This document shows positions 1,270-63,066 of a DNA stretch of 64,000 nt, piece by piece; position 1 is the stretch's first letter; every line of letters starts with the position of its first letter. The notes beneath the pieces are model-generated. The model was not told the DNA's origin. It saw only the letters and a program-made list of their open reading frames with translations, and made no database searches. The DNA is from an uncultured Alphaproteobacteria bacterium. Its GTDB lineage: Bacteria; Pseudomonadota; Alphaproteobacteria; CAAGCB01; CAG-977. The position numbers were made by a program, and so were the translations under genes. The stretch lies in NCBI GenBank assembly GCA_944393745.1, contig CALYBD010000001.1, forward strand, positions 72,628 through 136,627, read 5' to 3'.

Positions 1270-2142
1270 CTATTCGATATTTTGAACCTGTTCCCTGAAT
1301 TGATCTATTGTTGTTTTGAGCGCCATACCGGTTTTTGTCAACTCTATATCAGCCGATTTGGAACAAAGCGTATTGGCTTCGCGATTAAATTCCTGGCATA
1401 AAAAGTCCAGCTTTCTGCCGACGGGACCTTTTTCCGCAAACAATTCCCGAGCCGTGTGGACATGGGCTTCCAATCTGTCGAGTTCTTCGCGTACATCGGC
1501 GCGCAGCATACAGGCTGTTACTTCCTGCATAAAGCGTTCTTCGGATAAATCAATCGTTCCCTGAATTAAGGAAAGCCCTTCTTTGAGTTTTTCGCGAATC
1601 TTTACGGGCTGAACGGCGGCAAGGGTTTTGGCCTGCTGCACCAGCTGTTCGATCTGACTGATTTGATCGTTTAAACATACAGCCATTTTTGCGCCTTCCG
1701 TCAGGCGGGCGGATTTTAACGATTCGGCCGCCTGTTCCAAAGACGTTAAAAACAGTCGGCACAATTCATCATGATCCGCGCCGTTATTCTGATCGGATTC
1801 GACAACACCGCGCACATTCATTAACCCGTCAATCGAGGCCGGTCGCAAAAGCGGATATTTTTCATGAATTTGCCCGGCCAAAGTGCACAGTTCCTCTAAA
1901 AACGGCAGATTGACACGTGAACTAAGATTCTGAACTTGCGAAAAAACGTCCAAAGAAACAAGAATACTGCCGCGGGTAAAGAAAGAACGCAGACATTCGC
2001 GGATTTTCAATTCCAAATCTTCGTAACCGGCCGGACAACGGCAACGGATTTCCAACCCTTTCGCGTTAACGCTGCGCAGTGTCCATGTCCATGAAACACC
2101 GTTTTGCATCGAAAAAGAACCAAAGCCTGTCATACTTTCCAT
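1270..2142 (-). CDS. yicC: YicC-family stress-induced protein (UPF0701)
   Basis: N-terminal MxSMTGFG signature and about 290 aa length. Adjacent to gmk, as in many proteobacteria. Confidence 0.85.
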   Translation of the reverse strand: MESMTGFGSFSMQNGVSWTWTLRSVNAKGLEIRCRCPAGYEDLELKIRECLRSFFTRGSILVSLDVFSQVQNLSSRVNLPFLEELCTLAGQIHEKYPLLRPASIDGLMNVRGVVESDQNNGADHDELCRLFLTSLEQAAESLKSARLTEGAKMAVCLNDQISQIEQLVQQAKTLAAVQPVKIREKLKEGLSLIQGTIDLSEERFMQEVTACMLRADVREELDRLEAHVHTARELFAEKGPVGRKLDFLCQEFNREANTLCSKSADIELTKTGMALKTTIDQFREQVQNIE

Positions 2143-17675: not shown

Positions 17676-17687
17676 AAAATAAAAAAA

Positions 17688-17720
17688 AGCCCTCAAACGA
17701 GGGCTTTTCTTTTTATTCGA
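17688..17720. terminator. Bidirectional intrinsic terminator between convergent genes
   Basis: aaaagccctcaaacgagggcttttcttttt is a GC hairpin flanked by A-run and T-run. Confidence 0.6.
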
Positions 17721-48702: not shown

Positions 48703-50022
48703 ATGAATATCAATAAATCTTTCATCAACAGCCTGTCTTTTACGAGCAAGGAAACGACCTATTTCGACGATAGCGTCAAGGGCTTCGGCGTCCGCGTCTG
48801 CAAATCGTCCGCGAGTTATATTCTGATGTATCGCAACGCCTACGGGCGGCAAAAGAAGCTGACCATCTGTAAAACAACGCTGATGATGCCGACCGAAGCG
48901 CGGGACGAAGCCAAGCGGCTTTTGGCTTTGGTCGTTCAGGGCAAAGACCCGGAACAGGAAAAACTGGAACGCCGCAAAGAATTGACGATCGGCGAACTGG
49001 CGGACGAGTTCCTTAACTTCAAACTGCCGTTTCTGAAACAAGCGACACGGAACTCGTATCAATCGGCGGTCAAAAAGCACATCAAGCCGGATTTGGGCAA
49101 AATACCGATCAAAGCGTTCAGACATTCGGACGCTCAACGGTATTATAACGACTTGCTGATGGGAAAAGGGATAACGACCTTTCACTCCGAAAAAGAAGAC
49201 TTCCGGCATATCGGATCGGCGAACACGGTTCTCGTCCCTTTGCGGTGTATGTTCGATTACGCCCGTTCTTTGGGACTGGTGAACTTCAATCCGGTCAAGG
49301 AGTTGCAGACTTTCCCCAATCCGTGCAGTTACGAGTTCTTTGACGAAGCGGAAATCCGAAAGCTCGGCAGAATCATAAACACCTGCAATTACGTCAATCC
49401 GTATTATCTGAATGTTATCCGTTTGCTTGTAATGACGGGATGCCGGAAAAAGGAAATCGAAAATCTAAAATGGTCGTATATCGACTTCAAGCATCAGTTG
49501 TTCCTCTTTCCCGACACGAAGACGGGCGCGCAGGACAGACCGTTCGGCATAGCGGTCAAGGAGTTGCTTCTTCAAATGAAAGACGCCGTTCAGCCGCAGA
49601 GTAATGACAAGTTTGTGTTTCCGAAATCGGGGAAAGGAACGGACGTTGCCAAGAACTTCTTTCAGGTTCACGTCAAATCAAAGCCGGAGTTTGCGAAGAA
49701 GAAAGTTCACAGCTTGCGGCACACGTTTGCGTCGATGGCGGCGGCGATCGGCTTTCCGGAAGCGGTCGTGGCGAAGCTATTGGGACACAAGCAACAGAGT
49801 ATGACCGCGCGATACACGCACTTGACGGAAGACGCCGTTCAACAGGCGGCGGATAAGATAACGCGAAGGATTGCCGCGTTGCTGAATATCCCCGAACAAG
49901 GCGCCAAGCCGGAGGACGTGAAGATGTTTCCGCGGGGGATTCACCTTTACAAGCTTCATCTTGTGAAGTCGGAGAAATATCCGCGTCCGATACTCGCCCG
50001 AAAACAGAGGGCGGCGGGGTGA
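48703..50022 (+). CDS. int: Tyrosine-type site-specific integrase (phage integrase family)
   Basis: N-terminal arm-binding/SAM-like region, then a catalytic domain with R...HxLRH...Y (HSLRHTFAS ... RYTHL). Confidence 0.85.
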   Translation: MNINKSFINSLSFTSKETTYFDDSVKGFGVRVCKSSASYILMYRNAYGRQKKLTICKTTLMMPTEARDEAKRLLALVVQGKDPEQEKLERRKELTIGELADEFLNFKLPFLKQATRNSYQSAVKKHIKPDLGKIPIKAFRHSDAQRYYNDLLMGKGITTFHSEKEDFRHIGSANTVLVPLRCMFDYARSLGLVNFNPVKELQTFPNPCSYEFFDEAEIRKLGRIINTCNYVNPYYLNVIRLLVMTGCRKKEIENLKWSYIDFKHQLFLFPDTKTGAQDRPFGIAVKELLLQMKDAVQPQSNDKFVFPKSGKGTDVAKNFFQVHVKSKPEFAKKKVHSLRHTFASMAAAIGFPEAVVAKLLGHKQQSMTARYTHLTEDAVQQAADKITRRIAALLNIPEQGAKPEDVKMFPRGIHLYKLHLVKSEKYPRPILARKQRAAG

Positions 50023-50191
50023 TCCGAGAGGGGCGAAGTCCCTCTGGCAAGGGCGCAAAAGTTTTGCGCTAACTTGCTATGGTAGATTTTTTCTGCCGCG
50101 GCAAAGAACCGGAAACAAGGGAATACCGATGTAAAAAGATGCTACGAATGAATACGGACGAATACGAATGTAAACGACCGAATACGAACGT

Positions 50192-50878
50192 TTACATTAA
50201 GTTTTTCGCGTATGCGATAAACGGATAATCGTCGGCTCCTTCTTTGATTTTACCGAGATTTTCTTTTGTTCCGATTATCTTAGCCATCACGGCCAAACAG
50301 GCGGCATCAAGCAAATCATCAAATTTGAAAAAAGCGTCCTTTTCCTGTTTTGAGGCTTCTCGCAAAAGTTTTTCAATTCCGGCAACGCCAAGATATTCTT
50401 TCAAAATCAAAAGTCGTTCGGCTTGTCCCGCACCTGTTTTCTTGGGAAAAATCTTTTTGCTGTTGTTTAGCAGTTCAAAGCAAAACTCCGGATGAGATTC
50501 CCAAAAATGAAAAACGTCAGGATTGTTTCCTGCCGCGAACTCTTTTACTTCATAAATTTTGTGCATAATTGCTTTCGTTTGTTCTGACATCGTAATCGTA
50601 TCTTTGATACGGTCATATTCCTCTTCCGTAGGAGGTAAGTTTTCGGGAAGAGAAAAAACAGAATTTTTATTCCCTTTCATAGCATTACGCAACGCTCCGT
50701 CAGGTCTTTTTTTTAAGCCGATCGGCATATCAATCAGAATAATGTCTTTCGGGTTGCTTCTGTTAAAATCAAAGCCTGTTAATTTTTCTTTGACCGTAAC
50801 GTTTGCCACGCCATATTCATTTATAAAAACGGCGATCCATCCGGCAGGACACCCGTCAATCCCCACATATTCAGTCAT
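50192..50878 (-). CDS. DUF429-family protein (predicted RNase H-like fold)
   Basis: N-terminal GIDGCPAGW hallmark. 8-bp overlap with the upstream HD gene. Confidence 0.55.
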   Translation of the reverse strand: MTEYVGIDGCPAGWIAVFINEYGVANVTVKEKLTGFDFNRSNPKDIILIDMPIGLKKRPDGALRNAMKGNKNSVFSLPENLPPTEEEYDRIKDTITMSEQTKAIMHKIYEVKEFAAGNNPDVFHFWESHPEFCFELLNNSKKIFPKKTGAGQAERLLILKEYLGVAGIEKLLREASKQEKDAFFKFDDLLDAACLAVMAKIIGTKENLGKIKEGADDYPFIAYAKNLM

Positions 50879-51425
50879 TTATCAATTCCTTGTATAAAGC
50901 TAAAAACTCATTTTGCACATCTTCGAAAGGACGTATTTGCGATGACAACATAATATGGAGCATTTGGCCGTTATCCGGAATAGGATTTGCTTTCACATCA
51001 TTCTTAAAATAATTTTCAAATTCCCAATACAGCATTGTATCGTCAATCGTGTGCCATAATGCCTGTTCATCGAAAAACGGTTCTATGCAGTGCGAAGCAA
51101 GAGCCGTTAAAATAGCTTTTTCCAATCTGTCTTCGTTTTCCATATATGCTTGTCCTTTAATGGGACGAGGAATATCGCACATATACGCTTCGGAAGCATC
51201 GTGAAGAAGACAACAAAGCTGAATCGTTTTATCGTATCCTCGTGCAGCGGCTTCTTTACAGCAATTTATGGAATGTTCTGCAACGGAATAAAAACGGTTG
51301 AAATGACCGTTTGCACGACATAATAACGACAATGCGTGCGCTATGTCCTCAATTTTGACGGTCGTCGGATCAGGGGTGAGGATATTAAACGATTCTCCGG
51401 TAAAAGTGGAGATAATATTTTTCAT
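50871..51425 (-). CDS. HD-domain phosphohydrolase, YfbR-like (5'-deoxynucleotidase-type)
   Basis: H..VAEHS ... LLHDASE ... D metal-binding motif order typical of YfbR-type HD hydrolases. Confidence 0.6.
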   Translation of the reverse strand: MKNIISTFTGESFNILTPDPTTVKIEDIAHALSLLCRANGHFNRFYSVAEHSINCCKEAAARGYDKTIQLCCLLHDASEAYMCDIPRPIKGQAYMENEDRLEKAILTALASHCIEPFFDEQALWHTIDDTMLYWEFENYFKNDVKANPIPDNGQMLHIMLSSQIRPFEDVQNEFLALYKELIND

Positions 51426-51479
51426 TGGTTTCCCTAAAATAAAAGTTCGGTGCGGGAAGATATTCCCGCACCGAAAGCG

Positions 51480-51716
51480 TTATTTTTTCTTTTTCAGTTC
51501 TTCAGCCACGGCTTTGTTGAAATCTTTTTGCAGCTGATCCATTTTCTTGCGCTTTTCGTTCATTTTCTTCGTATAATCATCAAGCTTCTTTTGTGAATTC
51601 TGCGCCTGTTTCATATAGTTGTCATAGGTTCGTTTTTCCGAATCATACTGACGCTGAACGCTGTCGATTTCACGCTGTAAAGAATCCATATTTTTCTTGA
51701 TTTGTTCACTTGTCAT
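51480..51716 (-). CDS. Small (79 aa) all-coiled-coil protein, unknown function
   Basis: aggagt RBS then ATG MTSEQIKK. Heptad-rich K/E/Q sequence. The longer track ORF (to 51875) runs into the structured repeat and is probably an artefact. Confidence 0.45.
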   Translation of the reverse strand: MTSEQIKKNMDSLQREIDSVQRQYDSEKRTYDNYMKQAQNSQKKLDDYTKKMNEKRKKMDQLQKDFNKAVAEELKKKK

Positions 51717-51794
51717 TTTTTTACTCCTATTAAAGTTAACGACAAAAACAAGATAATTCGTATATACGTCAAAATATGTCATATTAAATTTCTT

Positions 51795-52145
51795 CGTATA
51801 TACAAAGCCCGCCTTAAAAGGCGGGCGGATGTTCAAACACCGTTTATCTATGGACGGCACAGCGGTTTCGCGCATAGCCTTATAACGCCGTCATTGTTAG
51901 AAAGAAAAGATGTATACTCTAATTTAGTAAACAGGCATTTAGCCTGTTTATGTCCGATAGAGAGTTGCAACTCTCTATCGGACGGCAGTTGAACGAACGG
52001 CGCCGACATAGAGATCCGCCCGTTCGGGACAGATTTGCGGCGTATAATTTGTTAGTCGCCATACACAATGCGACATAGATAAAAGGGTGTTTGAAGCCCT
52101 ATGCCTTTCAACAAAGCATATCTGATTTTTAACCAACTTTTTTCA
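51795..52145 (-). ncRNA. Copy A of a structured noncoding element (candidate leader/sRNA, minus sense) upstream of the coiled-coil gene
   Basis: Homologous to copy B, sharing blocks GGATGTTCA.A.ACCGT, GCCGACAT..CCGCC, AGTCGC..GCGAC and AAAAGGGT..CCCT. In minus sense it ends in a gcccgcc/ggcgggc hairpin plus T-run. Calling them repeats is firm; calling them RNA is inferred. Confidence 0.45.
51952..51983. repeat. Perfect 32-bp palindrome (16-bp arms, no spacer) inside copy A
   Basis: gtccgatagagagttg|caactctctatcggac. Absent from copy B. Confidence 0.9.
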
Positions 52146-52557
52146 TAAAGCAAATTAAATTTATCAATGGGATTACAAGAGGAAAAATAAGAGTCAGCAA
52201 AAGTGGCAGGATACGCAATTCGTAATACGAACGCTTGCCGGTGAACTCTGCGAGGCATTTGCCGACGGCAAAGAGGAAAAAAACGCACGGTCGAATTTTT
52301 TATTTTTGCCATCTATCAGCCGGATGATTTTCCGTTGCTAAAAATCCGTTCTTGTTTTACTTTAACAACAGAGGGAATAGTCCATAAAATTATTCTCTCA
52401 TCGGAAATCTTCGGAAGATTTCGGCAAAGGACTTTTTTCTGTTACCTCGCTGTTACCTGCTGCCGTTTTCGATAATATCAAGAAACATCAAAAACATCGT
52501 TTTTATGTTTCACTTCAACAAGTTGTAAAATACCATCAAAACCTTAAACCCGTTGTA

Positions 52558-53010
52558 TTACAAAAGATCAAACATTCCTGTCTGACGCAAAGCTTCGCCC
52601 AATACAACGGCCCCCGAAAGGGCAACATTAACGGATCGGGCTTCCGGACGCATCGGAATACGCAACCGCGCGTCCGCCGCCTGATGCACGAAATCCGGTA
52701 CTCCCGCGCTTTCGCGCCCCAACAGCAAAATATCATCGCGTCTAAAAGAAAATTTCTGATACGGCTCGGATCCCTTTGTCGTCAATAAAACGATCCGCCC
52801 CTGATGAGCGGCATAAAATTTTTCCCACGAATCATGGCGGGTATAATCGACAATATCCAGATAATCCATCCCTGCCCGACGCATTTTTTGATCGTTAAAA
52901 ATAAACCCGCACGGTTCGATAATATCCACGGGAATGTCAAAACACGCCGCCAAACGCATCAATGTACCCGTATTCTGCGGTATATCCGGTTCGTAAAGAG
53001 CTAAACGCAT
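52558..53010 (-). CDS. trmL: tRNA (cytidine/uridine-2'-O)-methyltransferase TrmL (SpoU family)
   Basis: MRLALYEPDIPQNTGTLMRLAACF N-terminus. About 150 aa SPOUT. Confidence 0.8.
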   Translation of the reverse strand: MRLALYEPDIPQNTGTLMRLAACFDIPVDIIEPCGFIFNDQKMRRAGMDYLDIVDYTRHDSWEKFYAAHQGRIVLLTTKGSEPYQKFSFRRDDILLLGRESAGVPDFVHQAADARLRIPMRPEARSVNVALSGAVVLGEALRQTGMFDLL

Positions 53011-53019
53011 ACCGCGCCC

Positions 53020-54123
53020 CTAAACATTAAACAGGAAATGACAAATATCACCGTCCTGAACAACATATGTTTTGCCTTCGGAACGCAGTTTGCCCATTTC
53101 CCGGGCTTTGGCTTCACTTTTGCAGGCAATGAAATCATCATAAGAAATGACTTCGGCCCGAATAAATCCCTTTTCAAAATCGGAATGAATAACACCCGCC
53201 GCCTGCGGCGCCGTCATACCGTCCCGAATTGTCCAAGCCTTTGATTCTTTGGGGCCGACAGTAAAAAATGTTTTTAAATTCAATAGCTTATAGCCAGCCG
53301 CGATTACACGGTTCAATCCCGTTTCCGCCAACCCGAGCGTTTCCAAAAATTCTTTTTGTTCTTCGGCATTTTCCAACAAAGCCACTTCGGCTTCGATTGC
53401 GGCGGAAATTACAACGGCTTGATTACCCTGCTTTTCAGCCATTTCAAAAACACGTTTTGAAAATTCATTTCCCGTTGCCGCCGAAGTTTCGTCAACATTG
53501 CAGACATACAAAACGGGTTTAGACGTCAATAAGTACAGCTGTTTATAAAGCTTTTGTTGTTCTTCATCTTCAAAATGAACGGTACGCGCCGGTTTCCCCG
53601 CGCGCAAAGCGTCTAAAACGGGTTGCATGACGGCAACCATTTCCTTGCCTTCTTTTTCGCCCGCACGGGCTTTTTTTTCAAACGGCACGATCCGGCGTTC
53701 CAAACTGTCCAGATCCGACAGCATTAATTCCGTTTCGATCGTTTCCGCATCACGTACCGGATCAATCGACCCTTCGACATGCGTAATGTCGCTGTTTTCA
53801 AAACAACGCAAAACATGAACAATCGCATCAACTTCCCGGATCGAAGCCAAAAACTGATTGCCCAAACCTTCGCCTTTGGACGCGCCTTTGACCAATCCCG
53901 CGATATCGACAAACTCCAGCTGAGTGTAGATCGTCTGTTTGGAATTTGCCAAATCGGATAAAACCTTTAACCGCGGATCCGGTACGGCCACACGGCCGAC
54001 ATTCGGTTCAATTGTGCAAAACGGATAATTTGCCGCCTGTGCCGCCATCGTTGACGTCAGAGCGTTAAACAAAGTTGATTTACCGACATTGGGCAATCCG
54101 ACAATTCCGCAATTAAATCCCAT
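53020..54123 (-). CDS. ychF: Ribosome-binding ATPase YchF
   Basis: MGFNCGIVGLPNVGKSTLFNALT G1 motif. About 367 aa. Confidence 0.92.
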   Translation of the reverse strand: MGFNCGIVGLPNVGKSTLFNALTSTMAAQAANYPFCTIEPNVGRVAVPDPRLKVLSDLANSKQTIYTQLEFVDIAGLVKGASKGEGLGNQFLASIREVDAIVHVLRCFENSDITHVEGSIDPVRDAETIETELMLSDLDSLERRIVPFEKKARAGEKEGKEMVAVMQPVLDALRAGKPARTVHFEDEEQQKLYKQLYLLTSKPVLYVCNVDETSAATGNEFSKRVFEMAEKQGNQAVVISAAIEAEVALLENAEEQKEFLETLGLAETGLNRVIAAGYKLLNLKTFFTVGPKESKAWTIRDGMTAPQAAGVIHSDFEKGFIRAEVISYDDFIACKSEAKAREMGKLRSEGKTYVVQDGDICHFLFNV

Positions 54124-54126
54124 TTT

Positions 54127-54717
54127 CTATTCCTTTTTGATTTTTTTTTGCTGATAAACCGCCAGTCTGGAAGTAAATTCCGGGACGCCGCCCGATAAAA
54201 CAAAGGGAAACGTTTCGGCGATATCTTCTGACAAAGTCTGAATTTTTTCTAAATCTTCCTTGGGAAAACCGGCAATAATCCAGTTAACGACCGGTTCTGC
54301 ATGCAAAGGATGTCCGATTCCGATTCTGATCCGTGTATATCCCGGCGTGCAGTATTCGTCTATGCTTTTTAACCCGTTATGACCGCCGGCACCGCCGCCG
54401 ACTTTTCCTTTTACTTTTCCGATCGGGCAGTCCATGTCATCATGCAAAACAATGACATTTTGTACCGGTATTTTATAAAAAGACATTGCCGCCGAAACGG
54501 CGCGCCCCGAATTATTCATATACGTTTGCGGTTTTAACAGCAGAATTTTTTGTCCGTCAATCAGGCCTTCGGCCGTTTCCGCGCTAAATCGTTTACGCCA
54601 GGACGAAAAATTATAGCGGCGGAACAGTTCGTCCGCCGCCATAAATCCGACATTATGCCGACTGTTTTTATATTCGGATCCCGGATTCCCAAGACCAACA
54701 ACCAAAAACATCGACAA
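54127..54717 (-). CDS. pth: Peptidyl-tRNA hydrolase
   Basis: VGLGNPGxxYxxxRHNVGF signature. Confidence 0.92.
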   Translation of the reverse strand: MSMFLVVGLGNPGSEYKNSRHNVGFMAADELFRRYNFSSWRKRFSAETAEGLIDGQKILLLKPQTYMNNSGRAVSAAMSFYKIPVQNVIVLHDDMDCPIGKVKGKVGGGAGGHNGLKSIDEYCTPGYTRIRIGIGHPLHAEPVVNWIIAGFPKEDLEKIQTLSEDIAETFPFVLSGGVPEFTSRLAVYQQKKIKKE

Positions 54718-54726
54718 AACCCTTCA

Positions 54727-55380
54727 TTATTCCTTTGCTGCCGTATCGGCTGCAGCAGGAGCCGCAGCTGCATCGGTTGTTTCGGCCGCCGTTGTTTCTT
54801 CAATGGTATCTTCCATCGAAGACGGCGCCGCAATCGCAGCAATGGTCGTATCCATGTCTTCGACGGGCTTGACGCCGGCCGGGAATTTCACATCAGACAT
54901 TTTAACGACATCGCCGATTTCCAAACCGGTCAAATCCACAAACAACGTTTCCGGAATATCCTTGGGTTTACAGGAAACTTCGATCGTACGATAAATCGCG
55001 TTTAACGTACCGCCCAGCTTCAGACCCGGGCAAGCCAGTTCGTTTTCGTACATGACAGGAACTTCGATTTCCAGTTCCGCATTTTCGGAAACGCGCAGAA
55101 AATCGATATGAATCGGACGATCCGTCAACGGATGCGTCTGAATGTCCTGACAGATGGCGTGATACTTGTTTTTGCCGACTTCGATTTCGAACTGGCGCGT
55201 CCAGAAACCTTTCTGGCGCATTTGCGCGTCCAAATCCAAGGCGGAAATAGAGAACATCACGGGTTCTTTCTTTTCACCGTAAATAACACCGGGAATTAAA
55301 CCTGCGCGACGTTCCGCGCGAGCCGCCCCCTTACCTGCCGTTTTGCGTTCATTAACGCGAATGGAAGTAGTTTTAGCCAT
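54727..55380 (-). CDS. rplY: 50S ribosomal protein L25 / general stress protein Ctc
   Basis: L25 N-domain (RxxxGKxxxRRxRRAGxIPGVIYG) with an acidic/Ala-rich C-terminal tail. Confidence 0.88.
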   Translation of the reverse strand: MAKTTSIRVNERKTAGKGAARAERRAGLIPGVIYGEKKEPVMFSISALDLDAQMRQKGFWTRQFEIEVGKNKYHAICQDIQTHPLTDRPIHIDFLRVSENAELEIEVPVMYENELACPGLKLGGTLNAIYRTIEVSCKPKDIPETLFVDLTGLEIGDVVKMSDVKFPAGVKPVEDMDTTIAAIAAPSSMEDTIEETTAAETTDAAAAPAAADTAAKE

Positions 55381-55503
55381 AATATATTTTATCCTTTTAA
55401 AATCAAAACGGTTCTGCCTCCAGGGGTGCCTGAACCGTTATTTTCCGCACCATGCGGAAAGCTTTCGTCTGTTTACACCGTTTTAAAGACAAAAGCAATC
55501 TTT

Positions 55504-56067
55504 TTAACGCTGTTTTTCCCGTACAGCCGTTACTTTATAATCGCCGCCGTATTTGTACAGCAAAATACAGCAGCGGTGCTGCCCGTCAATAATGACATTA
55601 TCTTTATTCAGAACAACAATGCACAAGGCCGGATTATATCCTTTTTCGTTCATTGATTTTTCTAAATTTTCAAAGCGTTCCGGCGTTCTGTCGGCATCAG
55701 CGGGCAGTACCCCCAAATCAATATGTTTTTGAACGTAATCGGCATAAATGCCTTTGTCCCTTGTCTGCAGATATTTAAACGGAGAACACTGCGTTAAAGG
55801 ATACAGCTTTCCGTTCCATTTTCTGCGAATATCTTTTAAAGGAATCTTAACGATTTCCGTTTCTTCTATTAACCCGATGGCATCCGCCGGCAGTCGGATT
55901 CCCTGATCTGCCAGTCGTTGTGACAGCCTTTGGAAATTTTGATATCGGTAAATTTCCCGTATCATGTAGCGATAATTCCAAAATACTATTTTTTTATTCA
56001 GGATTCGAAATGTTTTTCGGATTTTCGTTTTATGAAACGAAAAAATTTTTTGTAGAACTCTGTGCAT
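55504..56067 (-). CDS. ParB/Srx-fold (DGQHR-motif) nuclease-domain protein, inserted between prs and rplY
   Basis: C-terminal VIIDGQHRCCIL motif (a DGxHR core). aagga RBS lies 9 nt before the ATG. Located directly 3' of structured element copy B on the same strand. Confidence 0.45.
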   Translation of the reverse strand: MHRVLQKIFSFHKTKIRKTFRILNKKIVFWNYRYMIREIYRYQNFQRLSQRLADQGIRLPADAIGLIEETEIVKIPLKDIRRKWNGKLYPLTQCSPFKYLQTRDKGIYADYVQKHIDLGVLPADADRTPERFENLEKSMNEKGYNPALCIVVLNKDNVIIDGQHRCCILLYKYGGDYKVTAVREKQR

Positions 56068-56094
56068 TTTCTGAACAATCCTTTTTCCGGTTAA

Positions 56095-56330
56095 ACAAAA
56101 CCTACCTTTGCAGGTAGGCGGATGTTCAGAAACCGTATAAACCTAACACGGCTCGACCTATTGGGCGAATAGCCGTATTCAGCCGACATCCGCCTGCATA
56201 GGACAGAAATCGGCATAAATATTTAAAGTCGCTTTATGCTGTGCGACTAGGTTTAAAAGGGTTTCTGACGCCCTGAATCCGATAAAACCGGATTCATATG
56301 TATACTATCGAAAAATAAAAAAAGAGCAAT
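56095..56330 (-). ncRNA. Copy B of the structured noncoding element (candidate leader/sRNA, minus sense) upstream of the ParB-like gene
   Basis: About 70% conserved blocks with copy A. Internal helices ggcggatgt/acatccgcc and tcagaaacc/ggtttctga. In minus sense it ends in a cctacc/ggtagg hairpin plus TTTTGTTT about 20 nt before the gene RBS. Confidence 0.45.
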
Positions 56331-56333
56331 CAA

Positions 56334-56359
56334 AAAGCCCTCTTAAGAGGGCTTTTAAA
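56334..56359 (-). terminator. Intrinsic terminator of prs
   Basis: aaaagccctcttaagagggctttt. A T-run follows on the minus strand. Confidence 0.7.
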
Positions 56360-56368
56360 AAGTTTCAC

Positions 56369-57301
56369 TTAATAAAACAAACTGGTGACCGAACGTTCTT
56401 CACTGATACGTAAAATCGATTCGCCGACCAGTTCGGCAACGGAAACAACCCGGATATTTCTTGCTTCTTTGACCGCCTGCGTCGGTTCAATCGTATCCGT
56501 AATTACCAAAGATTCCAACGGCGAATCCGTTACGCGCTTTACCGCTTCGCCGGACAATACCCCGTGCGTGACATAAGCATGAACCGAATTTGCCCCGGCA
56601 TTCTTTAACGCAACGGCCGCATTGCACAGTGTTCCGGCCGAATCGACGATATCGTCAACCAAAATGCAATCCTGCCCTTCGACTTCGCCGATAATGTTCA
56701 TCACTTCGGACACACCGGCGCGTTCACGGCGCTTATCAATAATTGCCAAATCGGCATGAAGACGCTTGGCAATCCCGCGCGCACGCACGACACCGCCAAC
56801 ATCAGGCGAAACAATCATCGGCGTTTTATCCCTGAAATGATACATAATATCCTTAACCATCACCGGCGCAGCCATCAGATTGTCGACGGGAATATTAAAA
56901 AATCCCTGAATTTGTCCGGCGTGCAGATCCATTGTCACGACACGGCTGGCTCCGGCGGAAGTAATCAGATCCGCAACCAGTTTGGCCGAAATCGGCGTTC
57001 GCGGCGCAGAACGTCTGTCCTGACGGGCATAACCGAAATAAGGAACGACTGCCGTAATACGACGCGCCGAAGAACGTTTAAACGTATCCAGCATAATCAG
57101 CAATTCCATTAAATGATCGTTGACCGGAGAACTGGTCGGCTGAACAATAAACACGTCCTGTCCGCGAACGGTTTCCTGCACTTCGACAAAGATTTCATTG
57201 TCGGCAAAGCGGCGGACCGAACATTTTGACAACGACATATCCATATAAGCCGCCACCGCCTGCGCGAACGGGATATTGCTGTTTCCTGAAAAAACTTTCA
57301 T
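56369..57301 (-). CDS. prs: Ribose-phosphate pyrophosphokinase
   Basis: [10 protein letters not shown]-terminus and PRPP-binding loop DDIVDSAGT. Confidence 0.93.
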
Positions 57302-61665: not shown

Positions 61666-63036
61666 ATGAAAATTAATGCGCAACAGGATTTAACCCGCGG
61701 CAGTGCTTTAAAAAATCTTTGGCAGTTTTCATTTCCTTTTTTACTGGCTTATTTATTACAGGCTTTATACAACACCGTTGATTTATTCGTTGTCGGACGA
61801 TTCGGAAACGGCAGCGTTTCTGTGGCCGCAGTCGCCAACGGCAGCTGTATTATGATGTTTATCCTGAATCTGATTTCCGGACTGACAACCGGTTCAACCG
61901 TTTTAATCGGGCAATATGTCGGCGCCGGCGATCAGGAAAAACTGCGCCGCTGCATCGGTACCAGTCTGTGTTTGTTTATGATTTGCTCTGTTATCCTGAC
62001 ATTGGTCATGCTGGCAGCCATGCCGTTGATCTTAAATCTTATGCAAGTGCCGCAAAGCGCTTATCAGGAAACCAAAGCTTATTCGGATATTTGCGTTTTA
62101 GGAATTGTTTTTATTACGGGATATAACGCTTTTTCGGCTGTTTTCCGCGGATTGGGAAATTCTGTGGCACCGTTGATTTTCGTGGCGATAGCCTGTGTTT
62201 TTAACATCATCGGCGATCTGGTCCTGGTGGCCGGTTTTCACATGGGAGCCACCGGCGCTGCCGCGGCAACGGTTGCCGGACAAGCGATCAGTATGTTTTT
62301 TGCTTATTTTTTCATGCGCAAAACCGTTCGTTTTGAATTTAAAATTAAAAATTTTATTCCTGATTATGCTCTTGTGCGCGAATTGTTCAAAGTCGGCCTG
62401 CCGATTTCAGTAACGGGAGGCCTGATCGATTTTTCCTTCATGTTCATTACGTCTATTATCAACGCTATGGGAATGGCTGCCGCGGCCGGGGTGGGTATTG
62501 TCGGCAGAATAAACGCGTTCGCCATGCTGCCGGCCGTATCGGCAATGGGAGCCATTTCGGCCATTACCGCACAAAATATCGGTGCCCACAAACCGGTTCG
62601 GGCCTTATATACTTTAAAACTGGGAATTGCCGGCACGATGATTTTCGGCATCATGGCCATTGCTTTGTTTTTGCTGATTCCCGAAAAGATCATCGGTTTT
62701 TTCATGGATCGAAACGCTTTCGGCGCTCAGGAAACGATTGAAGCCGGAACGGCTTATGCCAAAAGCTTTTGTTTTGAATATATTCTGGTGCCCGTCGTGT
62801 TTTGCACCAACGGCTTTTTCAACGGATGCGGACGATCCTTTTTTTCCATGCTGAATAACGTCTTGTGTACTTTTGTTTTCAGGATTCCCATGGCGTATTA
62901 TTTCAGCACGATGGCCAATGCTTCCCTTTATGCCGTCGGGTTTGCCTCTCCGCTGGCTTCTTTTGCTTCCAATATTTTGGCTTTGATTTATCTGGCCAGC
63001 GGCCGGTGGCGTAAAAAAGGCATCAAATGGTTATAA
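61666..63036 (+). CDS. MATE-family multidrug/toxin efflux transporter
   Basis: 12-TM pattern. About 456 aa. Starts 2 bp after the proC stop. Confidence 0.78.
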   Translation: MKINAQQDLTRGSALKNLWQFSFPFLLAYLLQALYNTVDLFVVGRFGNGSVSVAAVANGSCIMMFILNLISGLTTGSTVLIGQYVGAGDQEKLRRCIGTSLCLFMICSVILTLVMLAAMPLILNLMQVPQSAYQETKAYSDICVLGIVFITGYNAFSAVFRGLGNSVAPLIFVAIACVFNIIGDLVLVAGFHMGATGAAAATVAGQAISMFFAYFFMRKTVRFEFKIKNFIPDYALVRELFKVGLPISVTGGLIDFSFMFITSIINAMGMAAAAGVGIVGRINAFAMLPAVSAMGAISAITAQNIGAHKPVRALYTLKLGIAGTMIFGIMAIALFLLIPEKIIGFFMDRNAFGAQETIEAGTAYAKSFCFEYILVPVVFCTNGFFNGCGRSFFSMLNNVLCTFVFRIPMAYYFSTMANASLYAVGFASPLASFASNILALIYLASGRWRKKGIKWL

Positions 63037-63062
63037 AAAAAGCCCTTTAAAAGGGCTTTTCT
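63037..63062. terminator. Bidirectional intrinsic terminator between MATE gene and grpE
   Basis: aaaaaagccctttaaaagggcttttc. Confidence 0.65.
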
Positions 63063-63066
63063 TTAT

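What the first reader, a model, noticed from the sequence alone, without database searches (positions are those of the whole stretch)
51795..52145. Structured noncoding element, copy A: conserved blocks and compensatory helices shared with copy B 4.2 kb away
Copies A and B share ordered blocks (GGATGTTCA.A.ACCGT, GCCGACAT..CCGCC, GACAGA, AGTCGC-loop-GCGAC, AAAAGGGT..CCCT), but two long-range pairings co-vary. One helix reads ttcaaacacc/ggtgtttgaa in A and tcagaaacc/ggtttctga in B. The other reads gggcggat/atccgccc in A and ggcggatgt/acatccgcc in B. Every local hairpin is perfectly Watson-Crick in each copy despite sequence differences. Read on the minus strand, both end with a GC-rich hairpin plus T-run placed 20-85 nt before the RBS of a small gene. 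Plausible TTGCTT/TTGCTC -35 and -10 elements lie at the far ends. This is the signature of a structured RNA, either a cis-regulatory leader with an intrinsic terminator or an sRNA with read-through into the gene. I cannot place it in a known family from memory. The downstream genes are a coiled-coil peptide and a ParB-like nuclease.
Basis: seen in the sequence. Interest (0 to 1): 0.75.

Follow-up and report, generated by a model that had tools for sequence, protein, structure and literature searches.

The report
Antisense-type leader RNA before surface genes
The two elements are real copies of a roughly 200-nt structured leader RNA, a previously uncatalogued relative of the phage P1 c4 / sRNA-Xcc1 antisense regulators, which uncultured gut Alphaproteobacteria place many times per genome in front of pilin, lipoprotein, outer-membrane and other surface-protein genes.

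Summary
Copy B (window 56295-56095, minus strand) and copy A (52120-51804, minus strand) belong to one RNA family. One pattern scan found more than 110 further copies, at least 8 per genome, almost all in gut and rumen alphaproteobacterial MAGs.

Each copy has a promoter, a covarying multi-helix RNA, an intrinsic terminator and, usually, an RBS about 25 nt later. Covariation is strong: 27 of 37 pairs carry compensatory changes, against 0 of 500 shuffles. The G·U to A·C ratio fixes the RNA strand.

No Rfam family reaches its threshold. Every member hits sRNA-Xcc1 sub-threshold, at 28-41 bits against 53. The layout parallels the P1 c4 cassette (a1, b1, c4, target RBS).

The invariant 3' motif UUUCUGAACAUCC is complementary to the downstream RBS, to an upstream decoy loop, and to an internal GGAUG segment. 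It also overlaps the terminator stem.

The best reading is a cis-encoded antisense-type switch that controls termination and translation. This is untested experimentally.

Copy A carries a recent 119-nt insertion and lacks the RBS pairing.

Verdict: a new variant of a known kind.

The parts
56302..56330 (-). Copy B promoter-like site: -35 TTGCTC (56330-56325), a 17-nt spacer, then -10 TAGTAT (56307-56302).
   Evidence: Read from the sequence. A loose sigma-70-like pattern (-35-like hexamer, 16-18 nt spacer, TANN[A/T]T -10; many copies read TTTACA and TATAAT) sits at the equivalent place in 60 of 102 family copies.
56275..56295 (-). Copy B 5' hairpin P1 (GAAUCCG / CGGAUUC). Its sequence is variable across the family.
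   Evidence: The family P1 region has a mean MFE of -7.4 kcal/mol against -2.5 for shuffles.
56228..56274 (-). Copy B 5' domain, resembling a1b1 of phage P1. It comprises three parts: the hairpin AGGG[CGUCAGAAA]CCCU, which presents an RBS-like decoy in its loop; the copy-specific linker L1 (56255-56248); and hairpin P3 (56247-56228).
   Evidence: Compensatory changes occur in 3 of 4 decoy-hairpin (Pm) pairs, 8 of 8 L1 pairs and 5 of 5 P3 pairs. L1 pairs with its cognate L1' at -9.4 kcal/mol against -3.6 for non-cognate partners, p = 2e-27.
56181..56214 (-). Copy B switch hairpin. Segment alpha (GCCGAUUUCUGUC) pairs with segment beta (GGCGGAUGUCGGC). Beta can instead pair with the downstream segments gamma1 and the 3' motif.
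   Evidence: The outer alpha-beta stem is 95 % paired with compensation at 4 of 6 pairs. The inner stem has compensation at 3 of 3 pairs. The three segments covary together.
56117..56195 (-). Copy B 3' three-way-junction domain, resembling sRNA-Xcc1 and c4. It has closing helix Pa, hairpin P4'/P6 with AAUA internal loops, and hairpin Pc whose loop is L1'. It ends in the invariant ACGGUUUCUGAACAUCCGCC (56136-56117).
   Evidence: It aligns to the full RF02221 model at 27.8 bits against a gathering score of 53. P4' is 99 % paired with compensation at 5 of 6 pairs. Pa compensations are seen in L047 and L064. The covariance model R1 scores 148 bits.
56093..56119 (-). Copy B intrinsic terminator (GCCUACCU / AGGUAGGU followed by UUUUGUUU). 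Its 5' arm shares the last 2-3 nt of the conserved motif.
   Evidence: A terminator with a T-run is present in 101 of 102 copies. The shared CC is paired in the terminator stem in 78 of 91 copies. Removing GCC changes the mean stem energy from -9.2 to -4.2 kcal/mol.
56065..56083 (-). Copy B RBS and start codon (AAGGAUUGUUCAGAAAAUG). This stretch is complementary to UUUCUGAAC-AUCC in the conserved motif.
   Evidence: The duplex energy is -16.6 kcal/mol. The family median is -14.0 against -6.8 for 465 control starts, p = 2e-38.
55504..56067 (-). Gene downstream of copy B: a 187-aa ORF of unknown family, inserted between prs and rplY.
   Evidence: Searches found no family hit.
52014..52153 (-). 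Copy A promoter-like site and 5' half. In order: -35 TTGCTT (52153-52148); -10 TAAAAA (52131-52126); P1 hairpin (52119-52101); decoy hairpin AGGGCUUCAAACACCCU (52100-52082); L1; P3 (52074-52055); alpha (52042-52026); and the 5' part of beta, GGGCGGAU (52021-52014).
   Evidence: R1 gives a partial hit of 24.6 bits.
51895..52013 (-). A 119-nt insertion inside segment beta of copy A, predicted to fold into two near-perfect hairpins. It is not part of the family consensus.
   Evidence: It is absent from the syntenic, 96.5 % identical locus L109 (UBA2903). The same insert lies at the same position in copies L006, L007 and L056, all from one MAG and each lying at an end of the stored stretch; for L006 and L007 the aligned insertion runs up to that end.
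51804..51894 (-). Copy A 3' half: the 3' part of beta, P6, gamma1, Pc with L1', the motif ACGGUGUUUGAACAUCCGCC (51843-51824), and the terminator GCCCGCC / GGCGGGC with a T-run (51826-51804).
   Evidence: R1 scores 53.6 bits.
51480..51728 (-). Gene downstream of copy A: an 82-aa coiled-coil ORF, followed by an HD_3 gene and a DUF429 gene. Its RBS lies 107 nt after the motif, so it lacks the canonical closely spaced RBS arrangement; its complementarity to the motif was not measured (it was excluded from the duplex test).

Best explanation
Copies A and B are members of a large family of leader RNAs of about 200 nt. The family is built like the phage P1 c4 / sRNA-Xcc1 antisense cassette.

**Layout.** A constitutive-looking promoter drives a 5' hairpin. 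Next comes a hairpin that displays an RBS-like decoy (GUCAGAAACC, like a1 of P1), then a copy-specific linker L1 (like b1). After these comes a three-way-junction RNA whose single-stranded junction is UUUCUGAAC (like a') and whose hairpin loop L1' (like b') pairs with L1. An intrinsic terminator follows directly, and then the RBS of the regulated gene.

**The invariant 3' strand, GGUUUCUGAACAUCCGCC, has three mutually exclusive sets of partners:**
1. The upstream decoy plus the internal GGCGGAUG segment. This closed, pseudoknotted form leaves the RBS free and takes 2-3 nt from the terminator stem.
2. The terminator stem.
3. The downstream RBS, GGAU(G)UUCAGAAA-AUG, which would block translation.

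A second toggle is segment beta. It pairs either with upstream alpha, which sequesters GGAUG, or with downstream gamma1 and the 3' strand.

**Proposed behaviour (inferred).**
- Most transcripts end at the terminator and give an abundant small RNA.
- Read-through transcripts are translated only while the antisense strand is held by its own 5' domain.
- Loss or occupation of that domain lets the antisense strand close the RBS, in cis and possibly in trans on sister copies. RNase P-type processing at the GGR 5' end of the junction domain, as happens for c4, is one way this could occur.

**What is shown and what is inferred.** The structure, the covariation, the alternative pairings, the RBS complementarity, the gene association and the kinship of layout with c4 are shown. 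Transcription, processing, the direction of regulation and the trigger are inferred.
For: **Family size and architecture**
About 114 are real.
- Promoter, terminator and RBS are conserved around the RNA.

**Covariation**
- On the MAFFT alignment, 91 % of cells are paired and 22 of 37 pairs carry compensatory changes. None of 500 shuffles reached this, and slid controls gave 32-44 %.
- On the model-fitted alignment, 96 % are paired, 27 of 37 pairs are compensatory and 471 cells are compensatory.
- L1 pairs with its cognate L1' at -9.4 kcal/mol against -3.6 for non-cognate partners, p = 2e-27.

**Strand**
- G·U pairs outnumber A·C by 361 to 91, and 51 of the A·C cells sit at a single position.
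- R1 scores 148 bits on the sense strand against 19 on the antisense strand.

**Alternative pairings of beta.** Both are kept by independent compensation.

**Helices Pa, Pc and P2.** Divergent copies in L047, L064, L086 and L016 carry compensating changes.

**RBS complementarity.** The median duplex is -14.0 kcal/mol against -6.8 for controls, p = 2e-38, across 28 unrelated protein clusters.

**Folding model.** The expected number of antisense:RBS pairs has a median of 0.28 with the 5' domain present and 9.7 without it. At least 6 expected pairs form in 11 of 90 copies with the domain and in 73 of 90 without it.

**Terminator.** It shares CC with helix Pa in 78 of 91 copies. Its mean energy is -9.2 kcal/mol with GCC and -4.2 without.

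**Kinship**
- In the 18 loci tested and in copy B, every member that was not cut off inside the domain hits RF02221 across the full model, at 28-41 bits.
- The annotated P1 record shows the order promoter, a1, b1, C4, a2, b2, icd.
- A bona fide sRNA-Xcc1 (72.6 bits) on a Pseudomonas plasmid has the junction UUUCUUAAC, upstream UAAGAAA and CAAGCAG, and an RBS-overlapping CCAAGCAGAGG in front of a BRO antirepressor-type gene.

**Precedent.** IsrK shows that an sRNA and its own read-through mRNA, made from one promoter, can switch between alternative structures (PMC4825925).
Against: - No expression data exist for these uncultured organisms. The promoter, the transcript ends, any processing and any regulatory effect are all inferred.
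- No member reaches the gathering score of C4, c4-a1b1 or sRNA-Xcc1.
- Unlike c4, the copy-specific loop L1' has no complementary site near the RBS (p = 0.47).
- The RBS similarity could partly reflect common descent of a duplicated cassette rather than selection for pairing. RBS-side compensation is only anecdotal: L016, L025 and L027 fit, L006 does not.
- Helix Pa is nearly invariant because the search pattern fixed one strand. One Pa position is an A·C mismatch in 58 of 101 copies.
- Copy A itself, a short subfamily (L023, L024, L068, L105) and copies L070 and L071 lack the canonical RBS arrangement.
- The closed form with Pa is a pseudoknot, which the folding tools cannot evaluate.
Confidence: 0.6

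Rival explanations
1. A ligand-sensing riboswitch that turns genes on. The conserved three-way junction, with its AAUAAGG / AAUARGCC internal loops, would be an aptamer. Ligand binding would stabilise helices Pa and P4' against the alpha-beta hairpin. That would weaken the terminator and free the RBS.
For: - The pairings are bistable and both alternatives are kept by covariation.
- Helix Pa overlaps the terminator.
- Unpaired nucleotides in the junction and internal loops are highly conserved.
- There are many copies per genome in front of surface and motility-type genes, as with c-di-GMP riboswitches.
Against: - The conserved single strands are explained by complementarity to the decoy and the RBS.
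- The domain is consistently most similar to antisense RNAs (sRNA-Xcc1 and C4), not to any aptamer.
- The downstream genes share a cellular location, not a pathway or ligand.
- No riboswitch family was hit, even at E up to 10.
Confidence: 0.12
2. A protein-dependent attenuator. The structured leader would be the binding site of an RNA-binding antiterminator or a NusG/RfaH-like processive antitermination factor, which lets RNA polymerase read through the terminator into horizontally acquired surface-protein genes.
For: - A terminator stands between a strong-looking promoter and every gene.
- The gene set resembles RfaH/UpxY-type regulons: pilins, glycosyltransferases, autotransporters and outer-membrane proteins.
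- Sequence blocks are invariant across copies.
Against: - No candidate protein was identified.
- A protein site does not explain the extensive complementarity of the invariant block to the RBS and the decoy.
- The layout matches antisense cassettes.
Confidence: 0.1
3. A stand-alone trans-acting sRNA gene, or a portable promoter-plus-sRNA cassette, whose position before these genes is a by-product of cassette duplication and recombination. It would not regulate the adjacent gene in cis.
For: - It has its own promoter and terminator.
- sRNA-Xcc1 was detected as a discrete 88-nt sRNA (PMC2996969).
- Copy A and the L023-type copies have no canonical RBS nearby.
- The anti-RBS seed is shared by all copies within a genome.
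Against: - In most copies the gene start lies 45-60 nt after the motif. That leaves no room for a separate promoter, so the gene must be expressed by read-through.
- The RBS of the adjacent gene is itself the best complementary target.
Confidence: 0.12
4. A DNA-level element rather than an RNA. It could be an invertible promoter switch whose inverted repeats are TCAGAAACC / GGTTTCTGA, or a MITE.
For: - There are conserved inverted repeats about 140 nt apart.
- The copies lie upstream of typical phase-variable gene classes: opacity-like outer-membrane proteins, pilins, glycosyltransferases and a methyltransferase.
- There are many copies per genome.
Against: - All 100 or so copies have the same internal orientation and match the model end to end on one strand.
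- The promoter lies outside the repeats.
- G·U outnumbers A·C by about 9 to 1 outside one position.
- The other helices, including hypervariable ones, covary as RNA helices do.
- I saw no terminal inverted repeats or target-site duplications at the element's ends (not checked systematically), and the orientation relative to the gene is fixed.
Confidence: 0.03

Closest known systems
sRNA-Xcc1 (Rfam RF02221). Originally an 88-nt sRNA of Xanthomonas campestris. It is found in integron cassettes, prophages and plasmids, upstream of symE, ORF6N and BRO-type genes.
   Same: - It is the best Rfam match for every member tested, aligned over the whole model.
- It has the same three-way junction: a closing helix, a hairpin with AAUA internal loops, and a second hairpin.
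- The junction strand is almost identical: ACGGUUUCUGAAC here, ggGGUUUCUUAAC in a bona fide member.
- It also lies upstream of a small gene, with upstream complements of the junction and of the loop.
   Different: - Scores are 28-41 bits against a gathering score of 53.
- Here the RNA has an additional covarying 5' domain of about 100 nt, including an alpha segment that competes for beta.
- An intrinsic terminator is fused to the closing helix.
- RBS pairing uses the junction plus the 3' strand of the closing helix, not the hairpin loop.
- The hosts are gut Alphaproteobacteria, with at least 8 copies per genome, and the downstream genes encode surface proteins.
The phage P1/P7 immI cassette: c4 antisense RNA (RF01695) with its a1/b1 module (RF03163) and its a2/b2 target at the icd RBS.
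   Same: - The elements come in the same order: promoter, hairpin, a hairpin presenting a1 in its loop, b1, a three-stem antisense RNA with a' in the junction and b' in a hairpin loop, the target at the RBS, and the gene.
- The antisense RNA and its target are transcribed together.
- A hypervariable specificity element is present. In P1 and P7 the specificity region differs by only 4 nt (PMC5320573).
   Different: - The window gives no hit to C4 or c4-a1b1. The only C4 hit in the family is 26.8 bits against 45, in one copy.
- There is no b2-type site downstream.
- A terminator follows the antisense RNA directly here, whereas in P1 a terminator-like hairpin lies between b1 and c4.
- The regulated genes are not prophage antirepressor or immunity genes.
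IsrK of the Salmonella Gifsy-1 prophage (RF01394).
   Same: - One promoter gives both a short terminated sRNA and a read-through mRNA.
- Translation of the read-through mRNA is set by alternative structures that involve the leader (PMC4825925).
- The a1b1 region of P1 scores 35 bits on the isrK model.
   Different: - The family gives no isrK hit.
- In IsrK the short form activates the long form in trans. The direction of regulation here is unknown.
Multicopy C4-derived sRNAs of Acinetobacter baumannii ('Group 1').
   Same: These are many chromosomal copies of a phage-type antisense RNA within one genome. They are thought to be processed from longer transcripts and co-opted for host targets (PMC5320573).
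   Different: - Those copies reach the C4 model.
- They are not described as leaders fused to a terminator and RBS in front of surface-protein genes.

Membership tests
sRNA-Xcc1 (RF02221) | Covariance-model score at or above the gathering score (53 bits). | tested here: not met
   Copy B scores 27.8 bits. Seventeen other members score 28.0-41.4 bits. Nothing reached gathering in the window or in 18 loci. A control member on a Pseudomonas plasmid scores 72.6 bits.
sRNA-Xcc1 (RF02221) | A three-way junction: a closing helix, a hairpin with AAUA-type internal loops, a second hairpin, and a single-stranded UUUCUNAAC junction. | tested here: met
   The alignments cover model positions 1-87. P4' is 99 % paired with compensation at 5 of 6 pairs. 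Pa and Pc are compensated in L047 and L064.
sRNA-Xcc1 (RF02221) | A discrete transcript of about 88 nt. | not testable with these tools
   This needs a Northern blot or RNA-seq. The original detection is reported in PMC2996969.
C4 antisense RNA (RF01695, clan CL00128) | Covariance-model score at or above the gathering score (45 bits). | tested here: not met
   The window gives no C4 hit at E up to 10. One family copy (L114) reaches 26.8 bits. The P1 control scores 68.8 bits.
C4 antisense RNA (RF01695, clan CL00128) | Cassette order: promoter, a1, b1, antisense RNA, target at the RBS, gene, all on one transcript. | tested here: met
   The P1 annotation was compared with the family anatomy. The decoy sits in a hairpin loop, followed by L1, the junction domain and the RBS.
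C4 antisense RNA (RF01695, clan CL00128) | Both exposed elements, a' and b', are complementary to the downstream target sites a2 and b2. | tested here: inconclusive
   The a'-like strand is complementary to the RBS (p = 2e-38). The b'-like loop L1' has no cognate site downstream (p = 0.47).
C4 antisense RNA (RF01695, clan CL00128) | 5' maturation by RNase P at a GGW motif at the start of the closing helix. | not testable with these tools
   A GGA or GGG sits at the equivalent position in most copies. Cleavage itself needs an experiment. The feature is described in PMC5320573.
C4 antisense RNA (RF01695, clan CL00128) | A prophage-immunity context that controls an antirepressor or toxin-type gene. 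| tested here: not met
   The downstream genes fall into 28 clusters. They are mostly prepilin-like proteins, lipoproteins, outer-membrane beta-barrels, autotransporters, BspA leucine-rich-repeat proteins and glycosyltransferases. There were no matches in viral contigs or plasmids.
c4-a1b1 (RF03163) | Covariance-model score at or above the gathering score (46.7 bits). | tested here: not met
   No hit at E up to 10 in window 51400-56500, and none at E up to 1 in 18 loci. The P1 control scores 51 bits.
MITE or other small mobile repeat | Terminal inverted repeats, target-site duplications, and insertion in either orientation relative to neighbouring genes. | tested here: not met
   The upstream flanks are unrelated. 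I saw no terminal inverted repeats or target-site duplications, though this was not checked systematically. All copies sit in one orientation, 45-60 nt before a start codon. The 119-nt insertion inside copy A is a separate matter.
Invertible promoter (inverton) | Inverted repeats flank a promoter, and both orientations are found among genomes. | tested here: not met
   The promoter is outside the repeats. About 100 copies all match the model end to end in one internal orientation. The G·U to A·C asymmetry is strong.
Riboswitch (any class) | A match to a known aptamer family, or demonstrated ligand binding. | tested here: inconclusive
   No riboswitch family was hit, even at E up to 10. Ligand binding cannot be tested here.

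The most novel reading that the evidence does not exclude
The copies in one genome may form an RNA-only regulatory network for the cell surface.

Each copy makes a c4-like antisense RNA. All copies share the same anti-RBS seed (UUUCUGAACAUCC), which could shut any sister gene in trans. Each copy also carries a private 'zip-code' helix (L1/L1') that differs between copies within a genome. That helix lets only the copy's own 5' domain neutralise its own antisense strand.

Such cross-repression combined with self-relief could give mutually exclusive or stochastic expression of pilins, lipoproteins, outer-membrane proteins and glycosyltransferases. That would be antigenic variation, or allelic exclusion, without any DNA rearrangement.
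Probability: 0.12. Interest if true: 0.85.

Novelty: new variant of a known kind. Interest (0 to 1): 0.6.

Why it matters
- **A missing family.** This RNA family is large and strongly covarying, yet no Rfam model captures it at threshold. It lies in a poorly studied group of uncultured gut and rumen Alphaproteobacteria.
- **A phage device put to new use.** It shows that a phage-immunity device, the c4 antisense cassette, has been adopted as the standard leader of many surface-protein genes.
- **Evidence on the upstream a1/b1 module.** In this family the pairings equivalent to a1:a' and b1:b' are under strong selection. In the P1 record the upstream a1 and b1 sites are annotated only as putative.
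- **Testability.** The design is compact: a decoy, an antisense strand, a terminator and an RBS within about 250 nt. It can be tested directly with reporter fusions.
- **Practical value.** It gives a handle on how these gut symbionts control their exposed surface. It would also improve the annotation of hundreds of MAG intergenic regions.

Tried and rejected
- **Rfam.** Nothing reached gathering in the window or in 18 loci.
- **tRNA or tmRNA as an integration target of the neighbouring integrase.** ARAGORN found none in the window.
- **Plasmid and viral relatives.** blastn of both copies against plasmids, and the 20-mer against viral contigs, found nothing.
- **MITE and inverton readings.** Rejected on orientation, flanks and G·U asymmetry.
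- **Retron, omega-RNA, bridge-RNA and type III antitoxin ideas.** Dropped, because no reverse transcriptase, TnpB/IscB or IS110 genes and no tandem repeats are nearby.
- **A c4-style copy-specific target (b2) near the RBS.** Not found.
- **ParB-like annotation of the 187-aa ORF.** Not supported by Pfam, NCBIfam, PADLOC or PDB sequence searches.
- **Known defence system for the coiled-coil, HD and DUF429 genes.** No convincing PADLOC hit.
- **More divergent copies in the held loci by regular expression.** Only L064 and L073 were found this way. The covariance model added L047, L086 and L016.
- **Not done.**
  - I did not use the metagenome scan.
  - The search pattern fixed one strand of helices P2 and Pa, which biases those two helices towards invariance.
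Full report
**1. The observation**

The window's minus strand carries two related elements: copy A at about 52153-51804 and copy B at about 56330-56093.

- The shared 20-mer GGCGGATGTTCANANACCGT occurs exactly twice. The expected count is 0.11, and none of 100 shuffles gave two matches.
- A second block, AGGGCGTCAGAAACCCTTT, also occurs only at these two places.
- Folded as RNA on the minus strand, copy B has z = -8.2 and copy A has z = -9.0 against dinucleotide shuffles.

The second (ggcggat / atccgcc) has the same core in both copies, so those two copies give no covariation for it.

The window is chromosomal. It carries leuS, ychF, pth, rplY, prs and grpE. It has no tRNA or tmRNA and no Rfam family at gathering.

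**2. A large family**

About 114 of these are real.

- Almost all come from uncultured Alphaproteobacteria of human, ruminant, rabbit, mouse and chicken guts.
- A single MAG holds at least 8 copies (CALXTY). Two others hold 7 each (CAVGVF, JAFUTN).
- A covariance model built here (R1) finds the copies at 72-164 bits on the sense strand. The reverse strand gives only 23-36 bits.
- In the window, R1 finds copy B at 148 bits on the minus strand and 19 bits on the plus strand. Copy A is split into hits of 53.6 and 24.6 bits. There is no third copy.
- R1 also recovered copies that lack the exact 20-mer: L086:833-986, L016:7239-7391, L073:1052-1204, L064:385-541 and L047:2267-2421.

**3. Anatomy**

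From 5' to 3' on the RNA strand:

- A sigma-70-like promoter. Many copies read TTTACA, a 17-nt spacer, then TATAAT. A loose pattern (-35-like hexamer, 16-18 nt spacer, TANN[A/T]T) matched in 60 of 102 copies.
- A variable 5' hairpin, P1.
- The hairpin AGGG[CGUCAGAAA]CCCU.
- A hypervariable linker, L1.
- Hairpin P3 (GUCGY...RCGAC).
- Segment alpha (AUGCCGAYUUCUGUC).
- Segment beta (GRCGGAUGUCGGC).
- A short hairpin, P6, flanked by AAUAAGG and AAUARGCC.
- Segment gamma1 (GCCGAG), then CCGU.
- L1', the partner of L1.
- The invariant ACGGUUUCUGAACAUCCGCC.
- A terminator hairpin with a U-run, present in 101 of 102 copies.
- In most copies, an SD sequence and ATG 45-60 nt after the motif.

**4. Covariation and strand**

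| Test | Result |
|---|---|
| MAFFT alignment, 74 sequences, structure P2 + L1 + P3 + alpha-beta + P6 | 91 % of cells paired; slid controls 32-44 % |
| Same alignment, compensatory changes | 22 of 37 pairs; 0 of 500 shuffles reach this |
| Model-fitted alignment, 101 sequences | 96 % paired; 27 of 37 pairs and 471 cells compensatory |
| L1 with cognate L1' versus non-cognate | -9.4 versus -3.6 kcal/mol, p = 2e-27 |
| G·U versus A·C cells | 361 versus 91, with 51 of the A·C at one position |

- L1/L1' is an 8-15-bp helix whose sequence is different in nearly every copy.
- The G·U to A·C ratio, together with the strand asymmetry of the model scores, places the RNA on the window's minus strand. 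It also argues against a DNA-level palindrome.

**5. Alternative pairings**

The 3' half of beta (GUCGGC) is complementary both to upstream alpha (GCCGAY) and to downstream gamma1 (GCCGA).

- Both pairings are kept by compensatory change. The outer alpha-beta stem is 95 % paired with compensation at 4 of 6 pairs. P4' (beta with gamma1) is 99 % paired with compensation at 5 of 6 pairs.
- The changes are partly independent. In five sequences, ACCGA or UCCGA in alpha goes with UCGGU in beta, while gamma1 keeps a wobble. The extension of P4' covaries without any involvement of alpha.

The 5' half of beta (GGCGGAUG) is complementary both to alpha (UCUGUC / GACGGA, 3 of 3 pairs covarying) and to the 3' tail CAUCCGCC, forming helix Pa.

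- Pa is nearly invariant in the main set, because the search pattern fixed one strand.
- In two divergent copies Pa is fully compensated. L047 reads GACCGGAAG / CUUCCGGUC and L064 reads GUGGGGAUG / CGUCCCCAC. In both, alpha changes in step with beta (CGCCUUCUGGU in L047, GUCGGCAU in L064).

With P2 and L1 formed, Pa is a pseudoknot that would stack on P2. The 3' strand GGUUUCUGAAC-AUCCGCC would then be covered by two separate upstream segments.

**6. Terminator and RBS**

- The last two C residues of the invariant motif form the base of the terminator stem in 78 of 91 distinct copies. Without GCC, the mean stem energy falls from -9.2 to -4.2 kcal/mol. Pa and the terminator therefore compete.
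- The RBS region downstream reads GGAUGUUCAGAAA-AUG, GGAUUGUUCAGAGAUG or GGAGGUUUAGAAAUAUG. These are complementary to UUUCUGAAC-AUCC.
- The median duplex energy is -14.0 kcal/mol in 101 copies, against -6.8 for 465 other SD-bearing starts in the same loci (p = 2e-38).
- This holds across 28 unrelated protein clusters.
- Three copies with an altered junction (L016, L025, L027) have a matching change in both the decoy and the RBS. One copy (L006) does not. RBS covariation is therefore suggestive only.

In partition-function folds of 90 leaders:

| Construct | Median expected antisense:RBS pairs | Copies with at least 6 pairs |
|---|---|---|
| 5' domain present | 0.28 | 11 of 90 |
| 3' domain plus RBS only | 9.7 | 73 of 90 |

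The 5' domain behaves as a built-in decoy.

**7. Downstream genes**

| Cluster | Copies |
|---|---|
| Prepilin-like N-terminus (G|RSMIEML...); only a weak NCBIfam hit | 33 |
| Three lipoprotein clusters | 15, 5 and 5 |
| Cys-rich secreted repeat proteins | 9 |
| BspA-type leucine-rich-repeat proteins | 8 |
| Outer-membrane beta-barrel / Opacity-type proteins | 4 |
| Autotransporters | 3 |
| GT2 glycosyltransferases | 3 |

Single cases include GT29-like and GT92-like transferases, an EcoRI-type methyltransferase, a PLD nuclease and a TRL lipoprotein. A crude N-terminal heuristic flags 91 of 101 proteins as signal-bearing. That heuristic over-calls. The common theme is the cell surface, not a metabolic pathway.

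**8. Comparison with known families**

- In the 18 loci tested and in copy B, every family member that was not cut off inside the domain has sRNA-Xcc1 (RF02221) as its best Rfam hit. The hits cover the whole 87-position model at 28-41 bits, against a gathering score of 53. One copy also touches C4 (RF01695) at 26.8 bits against 45.
- A bona fide sRNA-Xcc1 on a Pseudomonas plasmid scores 72.6 bits.
  - Its junction reads GGUUUCUUAAC.
  - Upstream it has UAAGAAA and CAAGCAG.
  - CCAAGCAGAGG overlaps the RBS of a BRO-family gene.
- The annotated P1 record gives the order promoter, a1 (in a hairpin loop), b1, a terminator-like hairpin, C4 RNA, a2, b2, icd. Rfam recognises C4 and c4-a1b1 there.
- In Xylella, C4, isrK and sRNA-Xcc1 hits lie side by side (PMC12189769).

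The family is therefore built like a c4-type cassette. The correspondences are:

| Element here | P1 equivalent |
|---|---|
| Decoy hairpin | a1 |
| L1 | b1 |
| Junction UUUCUGAAC | a' |
| Loop L1' | b' |
| RBS spacer | a2 |

It differs in these ways:
- No b2-like site exists (p = 0.47).
- RBS pairing extends into the 3' strand of the closing helix, acting as an anti-SD.
- An intrinsic terminator is fused to the RNA.
- There is an alpha segment that competes for beta.
- The host lineage is different.
- The copy number is high.
- The regulated genes are of a different type.

Two precedents are relevant. IsrK is an sRNA whose own read-through mRNA switches between translationally silent and active structures (PMC4825925). 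Acinetobacter has multicopy chromosomal C4 derivatives (PMC5320573).

**9. The two copies in the window**

Copy B is a canonical member.
- It sits between prs and rplY, in front of a 187-aa ORF of unknown family.
- Its RBS duplex with the motif is -16.6 kcal/mol.

Copy A is atypical.
- A syntenic contig of MAG UBA2903 (L109) is 96.5 % identical but lacks window 51895-52013. Copy A therefore carries a recent 119-nt insertion.
- The insertion lies inside beta, at the junction between helices Pa and P4'. It folds into two long hairpins.
- The same insert sits at the same site in three copies in MAG UMGS1296, each lying at an end of the stored stretch.
- The junction of copy A is the covaried GGUGUUUGAAC.
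- The RBS of the downstream coiled-coil gene is 107 nt away, so it lacks the canonical closely spaced RBS arrangement; its complementarity to the motif was not measured.
- That gene is followed by HD_3 and DUF429 genes and by a convergent P4-type integrase.

**10. Verdict**

- The element is a structured RNA leader of the c4 / sRNA-Xcc1 antisense kind. It is not a member of any existing Rfam family by threshold, so it is best called a new variant of a known kind.
- The mechanism is competition between a decoy, a terminator and the RBS for one invariant strand, with a second alpha/beta toggle. It rests on covariation, complementarity statistics and folding models.
- Transcription, processing, the direction of regulation and the trigger remain untested.
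- Limits:
  - The genome scan was truncated.
  - The search pattern biased helices P2 and Pa towards invariance.
  - Pseudoknots cannot be scored with the folding tools.
  - No expression data exist.

Noticed in passing
window 51895-52013: A 119-nt insertion lies inside copy A. It is predicted to form two long, near-perfect hairpins and is flanked by ATGTCGGCG and ATGACGGCG (read on the RNA strand). It is absent from the 96.5 % identical UBA2903 contig. It is present at the same site in three family copies of MAG UMGS1296 (L006, L007, L056), each of which lies at an end of the stored stretch. It may be a small repeat that targets this RNA or spreads among copies by recombination.
   Followed up: partly
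window 51757-51767 and 51793-51803: An 11-nt direct repeat, TTCGTATATAC, occurs twice, 36 nt apart. It lies between the terminator of copy A and the RBS of the coiled-coil gene. It could be an operator for a DNA-binding regulator.
   Followed up: no
window 48703-51728: A P4-type tyrosine integrase (Arm-DNA-bind_3, SAM-like and catalytic domains) lies convergent with a minus-strand gene string: coiled-coil, HD_3, DUF429. This looks like a small integrated island, yet no tRNA or tmRNA gene exists anywhere in the 64-kb window. PADLOC gave no convincing defence-system hit.
   Followed up: partly
window 55504-56311: Copy B and its 187-aa ORF form an insertion-like unit between prs and rplY-pth-ychF. 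The ORF contains a DGQHR motif but has no Pfam, NCBIfam, PADLOC or PDB-sequence match, so the 'ParB-like' label is unsupported.
   Followed up: partly
L073:1052-1204, L073:1606-1743 and L073 near 1329-1348 (plus strand): One MAG contig carries a complete copy, a second copy about 550 nt away that has lost its 3' motif, and an isolated 20-mer with its terminator but no upstream domain. These are signs of decay and rearrangement of family members.
   Followed up: no
L023:89-209, L024:2386-2516, L068:6713-6843, L105:2394-2525: A short subfamily of about 130 nt lacks P3 and segment alpha but keeps P2, L1, P4' and Pa. It has no gene start within about 160 nt. In L023 the next gene encodes FtsH.
   Followed up: no
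L002, L003, L005, L016, L053, L058-L060, L069, L077, L078, L080, L090: Contigs that carry typical family copies belong to assemblies labelled Eubacteriales, Bacteroidaceae, Lachnospiraceae or [Ruminococcus] gnavus. Their copies resemble those of alphaproteobacterial MAGs, so these 'cleanbin' records may be mislabelled or contaminated bins.
   Followed up: no
window 56328-56360: A symmetric hairpin, AAAAAGCCCTCTTAAGAGGGCTTTTT, lies just after prs and directly upstream of the copy B promoter. Similar hairpins occur at 17680-17712 and 63032-63064. It is probably a bidirectional terminator that insulates the leader promoter from prs transcription.
   Followed up: no
L120:590-840 (Pseudomonas aeruginosa plasmid NZ_CP093017.1): A bona fide sRNA-Xcc1 shows the full c4-type layout in front of a BRO-family gene: upstream complements of its junction and of its loop, a terminator-like hairpin, and a loop-complementary site over the RBS. 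This suggests that RF02221 belongs with the C4 clan, although Rfam lists it without a clan.
   Followed up: partly
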